From a virus, in IMG/VR virus record IMGVR_UViG_3300046779_001269, positions 64,001 through 128,000 of that record: a DNA stretch of 64,000 nt. One strand, 5' to 3'. The notes beneath the pieces are model-generated. The model did not search any database. It was not told where the DNA came from and saw only the letters and a program-made list of their open reading frames with translations. Made by a program: the position numbers and the translations under genes. The stretch's first letter is position 1; each line of letters begins with the position of its first letter. This document shows positions 13,172-64,000 of the stretch, in pieces.

Positions 13172-13179
13172 TATTTATC
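13172..13179 (-). promoter_or_regulatory. Possible late promoter variant (GATAAATA) for gp16
   Basis: TAAATA core, but very close to the start codon. Confidence 0.35.
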
Positions 13180-14266
13180 AACTGTTACGGTATTTAATTA
13201 TGATACAACCGGAGCCACCGTTGCCACCATTGTATAAAGCATCACCAGATGTGATTATGACACCGCCACCACCTCCTCCGCCGTATCCGTTTGTTCCGGA
13301 TGATGCACCAAGTACATTGGACAATGAGTTGCCAATTGCGCCATAACCTCCACCACCAATACCATTAAGGCCACGAGTAGCAGAAGAATATGGAGTGGTC
13401 CTGTTTCCTCCACCGCCACCGCCACCCAGAAAATATGCTCCTGATGGATAAGTGCTAGTTACAGCATACTCACCATGCACTGAACCTGTTATGGGATTTT
13501 TATTATACCAACCTCCACCACCAACACCTGCATAACCATTTGTTCCGTCAAAATAAGCACTTATTGTACGAACATTACGACCATAGTCACCAAAATAACC
13601 ATATGCTGCTCCACCACCAGCGGAGTGATATGTGTTTGTTGCATTACCGATACCTTCTCCGCCTTGATTTGCGCCAGAAGCAGACAATGTGGAAGCTTCA
13701 TTTGATTGTGATTGTGTTGCAACATCTTGTGTAGCTAATCCTCCCAAATAAGTTCTATCTGTTGAAAATCTACCACCTGGTGCACCACCACCGTTGCCGC
13801 CAGCTAAATCATTTTGAAAATAAGAAGTGTTTGCTGGTGGACTTGTACCTAAAGTTCCGGGTCCACCTTTGCCGCCACCCAAAGCAATCATGCCAGCTAA
13901 CTTGGTGTCACCGCCATTTGTTGAGGCGTTGCCTGTTACTACATTATGGCCGAGACCTCCTTGGCCAATTTCAATTACATGTTGACCGATAGGTAATATT
14001 ACATTTGATTTGTAAAAGAAACCTCCGCCGCCGCCACCGCCACCAGCGTATGATTGTGCGCCACCGCCACCACCACCACCAACCATAAACAATTCAATTG
14101 CACTGTCGACCGTACCCAATGAATCAATCGTTAACACCGTATTGGCGGTGATTGTGTGTATCGTGTAATTGTTATAATATGTGACTGTGCCACCACTAAT
14201 CAAATTAAAGTCTGTAATGATGCCTCTAAATGTTGCACCACTAATTGATACATTTTCAATATTCAT
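13178..14266 (-). CDS. Glycine-rich putative adhesin (polyglycine type II / gp38-like)
   Basis: HT..., MVGGGGGGG, repeated GGGGG runs separated by variable loops, ends GGSGCIIIKY. Confidence 0.7.
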   Translation of the reverse strand: MNIENVSISGATFRGIITDFNLISGGTVTYYNNYTIHTITANTVLTIDSLGTVDSAIELFMVGGGGGGGAQSYAGGGGGGGGFFYKSNVILPIGQHVIEIGQGGLGHNVVTGNASTNGGDTKLAGMIALGGGKGGPGTLGTSPPANTSYFQNDLAGGNGGGAPGGRFSTDRTYLGGLATQDVATQSQSNEASTLSASGANQGGEGIGNATNTYHSAGGGAAYGYFGDYGRNVRTISAYFDGTNGYAGVGGGGWYNKNPITGSVHGEYAVTSTYPSGAYFLGGGGGGGNRTTPYSSATRGLNGIGGGGYGAIGNSLSNVLGASSGTNGYGGGGGGGVIITSGDALYNGGNGGSGCIIIKYRNS

Positions 14267-14274
14267 ATTTTAAA

Positions 14275-61657: not shown

Positions 61658-61660
61658 TTT

Positions 61661-64000
61661 TTACCCCAATATGATAATTCTATCATCTTCTGTTGTTATT
61701 AATATGTTATCTTCTGTCATCAACTGTGGAACATATTGATATCCTGTGGATCCATATAGTATTACCTCAGTTGTGTCGATTGTTCTTCTTACTGAAATTA
61801 GACCGTTGCTTGAGTTTGATGACAAATTGCTGACCAATGTTACTTGATTGTTACTATAATCAACACTCTCAACCAATCTTTGTGTGTTGTTTCCAACCAA
61901 AATCCAATCACCAGTTCTTATAATGTCCTTCAATGGGTAAGAAGTGTTACTATACACACCATTGTTGATGATATTATAAGAGTTTGTCAGAGCTGTTATA
62001 TTTATTATATCCGAATCAACCGAACCATAACCGTATGCCACATTGGCATAAGTCAACCAGATACTATCGTCAATGTAAACTATGTTATTGGTTGAATCAA
62101 CATCTCTAATCTGAGAACGAATGTTTGGTCCACCTGTTGGTCTAATATCAATCCAAATTCTAGGACCAAAAATGTCACCAATATCTGCGCCAGCCAAGTT
62201 ATTAATCTTGATGGCATTGTTACTCTTATTGGTGAAAGTGGTTACAACATTTGCACTTGTGCCATTGTATCCAGTATAGTATTGTAGAGTGTGGCCTTGG
62301 AAGAAACCTTGTGAACCAGTTGTTTCAAACTCAACATTTGATTTTGTTCTATGTTTACCAATGAATTTGAGACCGGCAGGATGCAATAGGTCCAACAACA
62401 CTTGTCTGTATTTTGAAATTTCTTTCTCGACACTGATGATGTATGTGTAGTTGTTAAAGTTCTGTGACTGCAATACATTATAAGAACTTGGTTGACCTGC
62501 TTTGTTGAGGTATGAACCTTGACCAATTACCAGACCATCCAAGAATTCTGATGTTGCCTTTGCAGTACCGTCACCATACACTTTGATACCATCACCTGGG
62601 TTATCATAAACATCCTCATAACCTTCAGGTGTAGAGTTGGTAATAATTAACTGCATCAAAGTATTCGCTGCAGTATATTTTAGTTTGGCACTTCTGTCAG
62701 GTGCGGTGTTGTAGTTGAACACTCTTAGATTGTATAATGCTTCTGCTGGATTGGCATTTGGTTGTATCAAAGAAACTGATTCTACTGATGCGTAATATGT
62801 TGCAGCGTTTACATTTGCACCCTGATATATCACATCTTCTTTTTGTGGCAACAAGGAAATGTTTACATTAGAAACAACAATGTCTTGTATTCTTAATGAT
62901 ACATTGGCATTGGTTACATAATCTTCACCAGGTTCAGTCAAAACAATTTGACTTACAGCACCAACTCGATCCACCACAACAGAGAATGTTGCACCCTCAC
63001 CAAGAATACCTGGTACATAGAGTGATGCATTAGCGGCCGATGGGTTTGTCGATTGTACCGTGATAGTTACACCACTGTTTGAGTTGTAACCCATACCACC
63101 CAAAGGATATAATAGTGGTGACTGTACATATTTTACTTGTTGTATTTCACCATTGGCACCAACTGATGTGATGTTGGCCTTGGCTCCATAACCTGTACCA
63201 CCTTCAATGACAATCGTATCATTGACCGTATACCCTGTGCCTGCATTGGCAATTTGGATTGGTGAAAGTATACCCACATTTCTGAGTTTGCCGTCAATGT
63301 CAGGCACATCTGTGTTGTACTTTGATGTTGGTGTTACGACTGGAATCTTAGAAATACCACCGCCGCCGTTCATAACTGCAACGGAAGATATTGGATATGT
63401 TGAGAACTCTAAGAATGAAAATGCATCGGCCAATATGGTGTTCACGTTCGCATTTGCCACATTCGTGAAGTTATAATCACTTGCATCCAACATTATGTTT
63501 CGTTTCAGACTGATTGTATCGGAAGAAATGAAAGAAACATTGGCTGTTTTTTCTTCATCAGGGTCAATCGCATTGACAATTGCAATTGCACCTGGAGCAT
63601 TCGTGATATCAATTGATGTGAATGGGTCTGTTGGTTCGAAGATGTATGTTTCATCTAGTGTGTAACCAAAACTACCATTCACCACGTTGATACGTTGTAT
63701 TGAACCTCTTGTTGTGGTACCAACTTCAGCAATGGCACCACGGCCGTTTGCTGCGTTCAGACCACCATAAATGATAACTGGATCACCAGGATTATACAAC
63801 AGACCACGGTTATTTGGATTGATGTTGACTTGACTTAACTGACCAACAATTTTTGCTCTTAGTGTTGTGCCATTAATCACAACTGGTTGATTGAAGTTGT
63901 CAACGACTGTTACGAATTCACCTGAGTGAAACAATCTTTGAATGTTTGAAATGAAAACTTCTGTTTTTGTTCCAACTTTAATAGATGCTTCTACTGTTGC
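61661..64000 (-). CDS. Baseplate wedge initiator gp7-like (C-terminal part; frame open to the right edge)
   Basis: Frame continues upstream of 63934 (ATVEASIKVGTKTEVFISNIQRLF); repeated I.V.N.G.GY motifs; NYTYII...YRQVLLDLLHPAG.K..G; upstream of gp8. Confidence 0.75.
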   Translation of the reverse strand, partial: ATVEASIKVGTKTEVFISNIQRLFHSGEFVTVVDNFNQPVVINGTTLRAKIVGQLSQVNINPNNRGLLYNPGDPVIIYGGLNAANGRGAIAEVGTTTRGSIQRINVVNGSFGYTLDETYIFEPTDPFTSIDITNAPGAIAIVNAIDPDEEKTANVSFISSDTISLKRNIMLDASDYNFTNVANANVNTILADAFSFLEFSTYPISSVAVMNGGGGISKIPVVTPTSKYNTDVPDIDGKLRNVGILSPIQIANAGTGYTVNDTIVIEGGTGYGAKANITSVGANGEIQQVKYVQSPLLYPLGGMGYNSNSGVTITVQSTNPSAANASLYVPGILGEGATFSVVVDRVGAVSQIVLTEPGEDYVTNANVSLRIQDIVVSNVNISLLPQKEDVIYQGANVNAATYYASVESVSLIQPNANPAEALYNLRVFNYNTAPDRSAKLKYTAANTLMQLIITNSTPEGYEDVYDNPGDGIKVYGDGTAKATSEFLDGLVIGQGSYLNKAGQPSSYNVLQSQNFNNYTYIISVEKEISKYRQVLLDLLHPAGLKFIGKHRTKSNVEFETTGSQGFFQGHTLQYYTGYNGTSANVVTTFTNKSNNAIKINNLAGADIGDIFGPRIWIDIRPTGGPNIRSQIRDVDSTNNIVYIDDSIWLTYANVAYGYGSVDSDIINITALTNSYNIINNGVYSNTSYPLKDIIRTGDWILVGNNTQRLVESVDYSNNQVTLVSNLSSNSSNGLISVRRTIDTTEVILYGSTGYQYVPQLMTEDNILITTEDDRIIILG

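What the first reader, a model, noticed from the sequence alone, without database searches (positions are those of the whole stretch)
13178..61800. Overall: a short-peptide plug-and-socket grammar that may encode a branched, multi-tipped receptor-binding appendage
Seen: about 38 kb of appendage genes in which short terminal motifs and partner domains recur in fixed neighbour relationships. The pairs are: C-term (D/S)xGxF then an Mtd_N-like N-term (twice); C-term VFGG or FNP..L..GM then a small adaptor then an adhesin (four times); GDG-type domains before M.TK-type N-termini (2:2 and 1:1); a GD.WYD domain before an FP.SP N-term; a TED repeat before KISEL; a gp15 D..IT.D tail before a gp10-like N-term. 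Known: branched RBP complexes exist (CBA120 TSP1-4, G7C, phiK64-1), but these are tailspike enzymes on gp10-like docking domains. Inference: several orthogonal tag/socket pairs build a tree: 117-aa base, 73-aa linker, 895-aa stalk, 1599-aa stalk, 999-aa branch, 57- and 164-aa twigs, with four tips carrying Gly-rich or LamG heads. I do not know of a description of this whole architecture, but could not search for one.
Basis: partly seen in the sequence, partly recalled or inferred. Interest (0 to 1): 0.9.

Follow-up and report, generated by a model that had tools for sequence, protein, structure and literature searches.

The report
Tag-and-socket joints of phage fibres
This uncultured T4-like phage splits its host-gripping fibres into many separate proteins whose short end-tags match docking domains on other pieces so consistently across hundreds of phages that they probably snap together into branched, multi-tipped appendages; several joints copy known phage joints, and binding has not been measured.

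Summary
In detail: all six tag/partner pairs are present in a 176-kb T4-like phage (37.7 kb of appendage genes). With this genome left out, the pairs recur far above chance in 3,309 dereplicated adjacent gene pairs: DxGxF 39/52, VFGG 60/73, FLLxG 33/46 (background 1% or less). The two adaptor types almost never take each other's tag (1 of 94). Non-adjacent pairs co-vary in number across 24 regions (rho 0.98 and 0.81), and socket genes precede plug genes (24/25, 41/41; shuffles 15, 28). The gp15 tail switches together with the next gene's N-terminus (48/50, 13 changes on the tree). Three joints have known counterparts: T4 gp36/gp37 (not true Mtd_N), CBA120 TSP4 XD2 (Z 10.7), T5 LtfC/p132. The jelly-roll adaptors, their tags and the WYD/FP.SP pair have no Pfam family or PDB sequence match; one complex prediction gave weak support only (0.32, best control 0.00). 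Correction: there are four separately rooted appendages, only one being the four-tipped tree. This scan noted the same grammar earlier on other DNA. Verdict: new variant of branched receptor-binding complexes; binding inferred, not shown.

The parts
46111..46464 (-). 117-aa base, LtfC / T5 p132-like collar protein; root of the main tree
   Evidence: Pfam PF23926 E 2e-6; phrog_3304 E 2e-16
45890..46111 (-). 73-aa linker: N-terminal alternating V/I strand (inferred to add to the LtfC sheet), C-terminal DxGxF tag (45893-45907)
   Evidence: strand pattern after LtfC in 17/26 loci, background 13%
43203..45890 (-). 895-aa stalk: T4-gp37-N-like socket (about 45735-45884), 14-residue Ala/Asn coiled-coil-like repeats, C-terminal SGGTF tag (43206-43220)
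38359..43158 (-). 1599-aa stalk: gp37-N-like socket (43000-43140), WYD branch domain (38467-38580), C-terminal type A tag (38362-38400)
   Evidence: tblastn with T4 gp37 aa 7-47, 44% identity, E 9e-5
37990..38358 (-). 122-aa type A jelly-roll adaptor (tip 1)
36909..37988 (-). 359-aa glycine-rich head (tip 1)
   Evidence: PF21722 E 5e-10
33879..36878 (-). 999-aa branch: N-terminal FP.SP domain (36786-36878), two XD2-like domains (34254-34433, 34041-34220), C-terminal type A tag (33882-33917)
   Evidence: fold match to CBA120 TSP4 187-250, Z 10.7, rmsd 1.4, 64 residues
33512..33874 (-). 120-aa type A adaptor (tip 2)
   Evidence: complex prediction with the 999-aa tag, weak support
27723..33512 (-). 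1929-aa head, Ig-like plus 7 LamG domains (tip 2)
27531..27704 (-). 57-aa twig: N-terminal M.TK plug, C-terminal type B tag
27198..27527 (-). 109-aa type B adaptor (tip 3), distant homologue of type A
   Evidence: hhalign 91%, E 1e-6
20764..27201 (-). 2145-aa head, TIG, Ig-like and 8 LamG domains (tip 3)
20248..20742 (-). 164-aa twig: N-terminal M.TK plug, C-terminal type A tag
19890..20246 (-). 118-aa type A adaptor (tip 4); modelled as one jelly roll
   Evidence: pLDDT 92; fold search
18958..19890 (-). 310-aa glycine-rich head (tip 4)
   Evidence: PF21722 E 6e-5, just under the curated cut-off
16205..17239 (-). gp15 tail terminator with a swappable acidic C-terminal tail; root of a separate neck-proximal appendage
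   Evidence: PF16724; tail and next gene switch together
14275..16203 (-). 642-aa fibre with T4 gp9/gp10 N-terminal domain
   Evidence: PF07880 E 1e-6
13178..14266 (-). 362-aa glycine-rich head without a separate adaptor gene
   Evidence: PF21722 E 1e-9
48104..51811 (-). 1235-aa fibre with one XD2-like domain (49688-49855); root of a separate two-tipped appendage
46917..47849 (-). 310-aa side fibre with M.TK plug
46517..46906 (-). 129-aa tail fibre assembly chaperone
   Evidence: PF16778 E 7e-21
59774..61657 (-). 627-aa baseplate-proximal fibre with KISEL N-terminus
61661..64000 (-). 3' part of a 945-aa wedge protein (gp7 by position) ending in the TED repeat tag (about 61664-61720)
17239..18901 (-). 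neck genes gp14 (PF11649) and gp13 (by position); context, not part of the grammar
52039..59763 (-). 2107-aa VrlC/DUF4815 protein and 463-aa wedge protein (gp8 by position); context

Best explanation
The short terminal motifs are protein docking tags, each read by its own socket domain on another gene product, so the phage assembles long fibres from separately made trimeric segments. Main appendage (each link inferred): a ring of the 117-aa LtfC-like protein holds the N-terminal strand of the 73-aa linker, as LtfC holds LtfA in DT57C. 1599 forks: its WYD domain takes the FP.SP domain of 999, its hydrophobic C-terminal tag takes an adaptor. 999 forks three ways: two XD2-like domains take the M.TK ends of the 57- and 164-aa twigs, as CBA120 XD domains take tailspikes, and its C-terminus takes an adaptor. 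Each adaptor, probably a jelly-roll trimer, caps a hydrophobic tag and carries heads through the heads' N-terminal peptides. Result: four tip types (two Gly-rich, two LamG arrays) on about 200 nm of coiled-coil stalk. Three further appendages use the same logic from other roots (wedge protein to 627; 1235 to 310; gp15 to 642 to 362). Genes are written roots first. Shown here: motifs, homologies, folds, co-variation, order. Inferred: binding, stoichiometry, virion position, receptor binding.
For: Adjacency in 3,309 dereplicated pairs, own genome excluded: DxGxF before gp37-N-like 39/52 (background 1.0%), VFGG before type A 60/73 (0.4%), FLLxG before type B 33/46 (0.2%), cross-table 60,1,0,33. 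Tags ride on proteins of 41-2332 aa and are conserved as amino acids with varied synonymous codons. Non-adjacent pairs: counts over 24 regions correlate best with the cognate partner in every row (WYD-FP.SP 0.98, XD-M.TK 0.81; crossed 0.15 and 0.24). A free socket exists in an earlier, different gene for 24/25 and 41/41 plugs (shuffled 15.4 and 28.2, 0 of 2000; non-cognate pairs at chance). gp15 tail type matches next-gene type in 48/50 with 13 changes on the gp15 tree, at least 7 forced by strong branches. Orthologues of 1235: XD present with M.TK gene 8, both absent 10, one truncated; 4 changes, 2 forced. Natural adaptor-head fusions follow tagged genes. T4 gp36 ends DFGYY and gp37 starts with the same domain. 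XD2 fold Z 10.7; XD domains bind tailspikes in CBA120 (PMC8825819); branching domain plus peptide shown by deletion in KP32 (PMC13352976); LtfC binds LtfA strands (PMC10713586). In cultured S-SCSM1 the socket fibre, adaptor and head are all labelled virion proteins in the record. Complex prediction, 3 adaptors + 3 tags: weak support, 0.32 against best control 0.00; runs agree in at least 93% of contacts, partner pLDDT at least 73; the mark was reached by 58 of 80 solved and 2 of 110 mismatched pairs, but at 0.60 or under by only 7 of the 80 and by both mismatches.
Against: No binding was measured and the one prediction is weak. Adjacent pairs can travel together by linkage alone. Loci were fetched with the window's own domains and contain kin, so p-values are inflated; the type B and IALG patterns and the head N-terminal patterns were tuned. 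XD domains often outnumber M.TK genes (5:1, 4:0, 7:1 in G007, G017, Melnitz), so XD is not always a socket for this plug. About a quarter of sockets have no recognisable tag just upstream. Many long regions are truncated contigs. No micrograph of branches was found for Melnitz (PMC9004378 reports only a contractile tail).
Confidence: 0.7

Rival explanations
1. The pairs do bind, but the pieces form several independent or interchangeable fibres rather than the fixed four-tipped tree: same-type tags and sockets cross-pair (three type A tags with three type A adaptors, three XD with three M.TK, two DxGxF with two caps), giving a mixed population of appendages.
For: Nothing resolves specificity inside a type. 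Some loci have one tag followed by three adaptor genes (L242, L244) or one adaptor followed by several heads (G006). Melnitz has three IALG-type tags and two stand-alone adaptors.
Against: Counts balance exactly in the window (3:3, 1:1, 2:2, 3:3, 1:1) and the topology 1599 to 999 to twigs follows from types alone, whichever paralogue pairs with which. The three type A adaptors are only 29-47% identical, leaving room for specificity.
Confidence: 0.15
2. The small jelly-roll proteins are assembly chaperones (like T4 gp38 or lambda Tfa) that bind the fibre C-terminus during folding, and the heads are anchored elsewhere; branching then rests only on XD and WYD domains.
For: Chaperone genes also sit right behind their fibres and recognise the C-terminus (own knowledge); a true chaperone gene of that kind is in the window (PF16778).
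Against: The adaptor is naturally fused to the N-terminus of Gly-rich, Ig and RCC1 heads; head N-termini differ by adaptor type (63/88 against 1/38; 25/38 against 4/88; post hoc); structural relatives are labelled virion proteins in S-SCSM1 and S-TIM5; the fold is a jelly roll, unlike PF16778.
Confidence: 0.08
3. The motifs are by-products of DNA linkage and translation signals: the C-terminal Gly codons supply the Shine-Dalgarno site of the next gene, and cassettes recombine with a fixed piece of the upstream gene.
For: The final Gly is GGA in 42/60 type A and 19/33 type B tags, and an SD-like core lies in tag codons in 28/60 and 16/33 cases.
Against: About ten residues upstream of the Gly are conserved with mixed synonymous codons (entropy 1.0-2.1 against 3.0-3.7 bits further up); half the tags carry no usable SD; only 6/39 DxGxF tags do. 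It cannot explain count and order coupling of pairs kilobases apart.
Confidence: 0.05

Closest known systems
CBA120 (Kuttervirus) TSP1-4 branched complex; G7C; RaK2/phiK64-1 (PMC8825819, PMC10253068); KP32 branching domain plus conserved peptide (PMC13352976)
   Same: The GDG domain has the TSP4 XD2 fold (Z 10.7, rmsd 1.4, 64 residues, 30% identity) and co-varies with a short N-terminal peptide, as in KP32.
   Different: Those systems use one socket class and carry tailspike enzymes. Here XD is one of at least six pair types, sits on long coiled-coil stalks, and the tips are Gly-rich or LamG heads; no depolymerase domain was detected.
T4 long tail fibre gp36-gp37 joint
   Same: gp36 ends in DFGYY and gp37 begins with the same N-terminal domain as the 895- and 1599-aa stalks.
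   Different: T4 uses the joint once in an unbranched fibre; here it is used twice in series, and T4 gp34, gp35, gp36 and gp38 have no tblastn match in this genome. No solved structure of the domain was found by sequence.
T5 p132 / DT57C LtfC collar with pb1 / LtfA (PMC10713586, PMC12617516)
   Same: 117-aa protein is LtfC-like and the next gene starts with a likely beta-strand.
   Different: Found in a contractile-tailed T4-like phage; its ring site on the virion is unknown; the partner is a 73-aa linker, not a full fibre.
T2/S16-type gp37-gp38 fibre tip (own knowledge, not checked by a tool)
   Same: A separately encoded glycine-rich head caps a trimeric fibre.
   Different: There the head binds the fibre directly; here a separate jelly-roll adaptor with type-specific tags lies between for four of five heads.
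Mtd_N cap (PF18454; BPP-1 Mtd, HylP)
   Same: Similar small N-terminal cap; relatives with a QFRR start also follow D-x-G or D-L tails in the loci.
   Different: The window's two domains do not reach the Pfam family.

Membership tests
T4 gp10-like XD branching domain (CBA120 TSP4 XD2) | About 60-residue beta jelly-roll XD2 fold | tested here: met
   Model pLDDT 97; top match 7RFV 187-250, Z 10.7, rmsd 1.4, 64 aligned; Foldseek TM 0.84. T7-gp17-N-type domains tie within 1 Z.
T4 gp10-like XD branching domain (CBA120 TSP4 XD2) | Binds the N-terminus of a second trimeric fibre or spike | tested here: inconclusive
   Only co-variation: rho 0.81, order 41/41, presence/absence 18/18 complete cases; no binding test
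Branched tailspike complex (CBA120, G7C, phiK64-1) | Branches are beta-helical depolymerase tailspikes | tested here: not met
   Pfam finds LamG, Ig and Gly_rich_2 heads and no depolymerase family
T4 gp36-gp37 type joint | gp37-N domain at the N-terminus of the distal piece | tested here: met
   hhalign 98.2%, E 4e-14, 56 columns; tblastn E 9e-5
T4 gp36-gp37 type joint | D-x-G-x-aromatic C-terminus on the proximal piece | tested here: met
   T4 gp36; window 73 and 895; 39/52 in loci
T4 gp36-gp37 type joint | The tag itself makes the contact | not tested
Pfam Mtd_N (PF18454) | Score above the curated cut-off | tested here: not met
   Window domains: no hit; 3 of 34 relatives hit, best E 0.0025
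LtfC / T5 p132 collar | LtfC beta-sandwich domain | tested here: met
   PF23926 28.8 bits, cut-off 27; phrog_3304
LtfC / T5 p132 collar | Dodecameric ring on the tail that takes fibre N-terminal strands | not testable with these tools
   Needs a virion structure; strand-like N-terminus follows in 17/26 loci
Known family for the 109-122-aa adaptors | Pfam family or solved homologue | tested here: inconclusive
   No Pfam family above cut-off, no PDB sequence hit; generic jelly-roll matches Z 8-9.4 (nucleoplasmin-like, Ena, KHP40 cement, turret proteins) without a clear winner
Tail fibre assembly chaperone (PF16778) | PF16778 domain in the small genes after the tags | tested here: not met
   Adaptors do not hit it; only the 129-aa gene does
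T4-like myophage (Kyanoviridae / pelagimyophage neighbourhood) | gp13-gp23 morphogenesis cluster and T4-type major capsid protein | tested here: met
   capsid 65% identical to Mosig and Melnitz

The most novel reading that the evidence does not exclude
Aquatic phages share an undescribed, expandable assembly code of at least six orthogonal peptide/domain pairs, centred on a family of trimeric jelly-roll adaptors with type-specific tags on both faces, so that appendage topology can be read from gene order, and this phage builds a roughly 200-nm four-tipped tree of lectin-like heads that has not been seen by microscopy.
Probability: 0.45. Interest if true: 0.8.

Novelty: new variant of a known kind. 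Interest (0 to 1): 0.62.

Why it matters
How phages of streamlined, dilute aquatic bacteria find hosts, and what their many unannotated 'virion structural' genes do, is open. If the code is right, the wiring of an adsorption apparatus can be read from sequence, a large set of hypothetical 60-120-aa genes gains a function, and the unsolved T4 gp36-gp37 joint gets a testable contact motif. It would extend branched receptor-binding complexes from enzyme tailspikes on one socket type to long non-enzymatic fibres with several orthogonal joints. Cultured phages (Melnitz, S-SCSM1, Bellamy) carry parts of the grammar, so it can be tested now.

Tried and rejected
PDB sequence searches with adaptors, the gp37-N-like domain and the WYD domain found nothing meaningful. 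Fold search of the adaptor gave only generic jelly rolls, none standing clear. I suspected the 267-aa adaptor relatives (P0008-P0024) were tandem triple adaptors proving a trimer; they are one adaptor with an insertion after the first strand, so this was dropped. I checked that WYD/FP.SP coupling is not double counting of homologous domains (they are related): 0 of 134 WYD hits lie on an FP.SP domain. The Shine-Dalgarno explanation was tested and explains only the codon bias of the last glycine. TED/KISEL (39 of 40 distinct upstream ends) was down-weighted: these loci are orthologous neighbours in one clade, so synteny alone could give it. WYD and gp37-N-like profiles are not convincingly related (10%). 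Literature searches for the motif strings and for branched-fibre terms found no description; the library lacks most subscription papers, so this is weak evidence of novelty. The Melnitz paper gives no fibre morphology. Read mapping and expression were not tried.
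Full report
Setting. The window is bases 64,001-128,000 of a 176-kb virus record. 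It holds a T4-like morphogenesis cluster on the minus strand: wedge genes, fibres, neck, gp15, terminase, sheath, portal and capsid. The capsid protein is 65% identical to those of Pelagibacter phage Mosig and Methylophilales phage Melnitz. The host is unknown. T4 gp34, gp35, gp36 and gp38 have no tblastn match in the genome; only the first 47 residues of gp37 do. No socket domain occurs outside the fibre region.

Observation. The stalks are largely 14-residue Ala/Asn repeats with a 42-base period, which I read as coiled coil; at 0.15 nm per residue the repeat parts of 895, 1599 and 999 give about 60, 100 and 50 nm (rough estimate). The heads are Gly_rich_2 proteins or arrays of 7-8 LamG domains behind Ig-like domains.

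What the sockets are. The 117-aa protein is LtfC/p132-like. In DT57C, LtfC forms a 12-ring whose sheets are extended by N-terminal strands of the fibre LtfA (PMC10713586); the gene after LtfC starts with an alternating V/I pattern in 17 of 26 loci, background 13%. The 'Mtd_N-like' domain is the T4 gp37 N-terminal domain (98%), and T4 gp36, its known partner, ends in DFGYY; true Pfam Mtd_N is only touched by 3 of 34 relatives. The GDG domain folds like CBA120 TSP4 XD2 (Z 10.7, rmsd 1.4), a domain class that mediates tailspike branching (PMC8825819, PMC10253068, PMC13352976). The four small adaptors are two related types of single jelly roll with no named family and no solved sequence homologue; close structural relatives are abundant in uncultured phages and include proteins labelled virion proteins in S-SCSM1 and S-TIM5. 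WYD and FP.SP are small, mutually related domains with no family.

Test 1, adjacency. I called genes on about 420 loci and long regions, built profiles from the window's domains and tabulated C-terminal tag against next-gene socket for 3,309 dereplicated pairs, leaving this genome out. DxGxF preceded the gp37-N-like domain in 39 of 52 cases (background 1.0%), VFGG preceded type A adaptors in 60 of 73 (0.4%), FLLxG preceded type B in 33 of 46 (0.2%). Tags crossed types once in 94. A third adaptor group goes with an IALG tag (18 of 35; pattern set). The tagged proteins run from 41 to 2,332 residues, so the tag is portable.

Test 2, protein or DNA signal. About ten tag residues outside the search pattern are conserved while their codons vary; the last glycine prefers GGA and can double as a ribosome site in about half the adaptor cases, but only 6 of 39 DxGxF cases. 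The constraint is mainly on the protein.

Test 3, pairs that are not neighbours. Over 24 long regions each socket count correlated best with its own plug: WYD with FP.SP 0.98, XD with M.TK 0.81, crossed 0.15 and 0.24, gene number 0.16 and 0.28. Walking genes in transcription order, 24 of 25 FP.SP genes and 41 of 41 M.TK genes found an unused socket in an earlier gene; shuffled order gave 15.4 and 28.2, never the observed value in 2,000 trials, and non-cognate pairings sat at chance. Gene order therefore behaves like a root-to-tip listing of a tree. XD domains are often in surplus, so some have other partners or are structural.

Test 4, natural swaps. gp15 occurs with no tail, with a D-rich tail or with a D-L tail; the next gene is then unrelated, gp9/10-like or QFRR-type, matching in 48 of 50 cases (one miss has unread bases), and the state changes 13 times on the gp15 tree. 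Orthologues of the 1235-aa fibre either have the XD domain and an M.TK gene behind (8) or neither (10), with about four changes. Type B adaptors occur fused to the front of Gly-rich, Ig and RCC1 heads behind tagged genes. In L242 and L244 one tagged gene is followed by three adaptor-bearing genes (at least three in two truncated loci), which hints at a three-subunit cap.

Test 5, structure prediction. Three copies of the 120-aa adaptor with three copies of the last 34 residues of 999 scored 0.32, best control 0.00; runs agreed in at least 93% of contacts, partner pLDDT at least 73. The tool rates this weak: 58 of 80 solved and 2 of 110 mismatched pairs reached the mark, but at 0.60 or under only 7 of the 80 did, and both mismatches.

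Cultured examples. S-SCSM1 has gp37-N-like fibre, tag, adaptor and head in a row, each labelled a virion protein in its record, plus LtfC. Melnitz has LtfC, linker, two serial caps and two tag/adaptor pairs. Bellamy has several tag/adaptor/head sets.

Reading. The tags are most likely docking peptides (about 0.7 for the model as a whole; I put the exact four-tipped tree at about 0.5). The region encodes four appendages with different roots: wedge protein to 627; 1235 to 310; LtfC to the four-tipped tree; gp15 to 642 to 362. Limits: loci were fetched with the window's domains and include kin, so p-values are optimistic; many regions are truncated; specificity among paralogues, stoichiometry, virion position and receptor binding are untested.

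Novelty. Branching by domain plus peptide is known, and three of the joints have known counterparts. I found no paper describing the adaptor family, its tags, the WYD/FP.SP pair, the gp15 tail swap or the combined code, in an incomplete library. Earlier notes of this scan describe the same grammar on other DNA; I looked them up after my tests, and they are not independent support. Class: new variant of a known kind; interest 0.62.

Noticed in passing
window 16205-16330 and loci L384-L463: The tail terminator gp15 has three alternative C-termini (none, D-rich, D-L type), each tied to a different downstream fibre class; suggests an exchangeable fibre at the head-tail junction of these T4-like phages.
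   Followed up: yes
L242:4798-8130, L244:5001-9775, L243, L245: One tagged gene followed by three adaptor-bearing genes, some fused to different heads (Gly-rich, Ig, RCC1); may encode a heterotrimeric tip with three different heads.
   Followed up: partly
G001, G014, G016, L031, L113 (after the first long gp37-N-like fibre): A 166-257-aa gene (starts like M..EKY.NYY) often sits between a DGGxF-ending fibre and the next capped fibre, and sometimes ends in DGGxF itself; absent from the window.
   Followed up: no
L108, L100, L112, L113, G015, G017: An IALG-type or similar tag is followed directly by a 970-1790-aa protein starting MAK/MAR, with no adaptor gene; probably another socket domain fused to a head.
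   Followed up: no
G006, G008, G013; window 13178-14266: Several Gly-rich heads start with an alternating G/I strand and come in runs of three to four behind one adaptor set; what they dock on is unclear.
   Followed up: no
P0008-P0043; L246:4001-4804: Type B adaptors with 160-260 residues inserted after the first strand, in small phages of another layout; the upstream gene still ends in a type B tag.
   Followed up: partly
window 47862-48098 and 51813-52037: 78-aa gene of unknown function between the 1235- and 310-aa fibres, and a conserved 74-aa coiled-coil-like gene after the VrlC-like gene (labelled virion structural protein in S-SCSM1).
   Followed up: no
L049-L080: A distant adaptor-fold group (MANKY start) lacks any of the hydrophobic tags upstream (0 of 12), so the fold is also used outside this code.
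   Followed up: partly
window 46917-47849: The 310-aa side fibre has two short BppL_N-like repeats (PF18338) and is followed by a PF16778 chaperone, an ordinary fibre/chaperone pair hung on an XD branch.
   Followed up: partly
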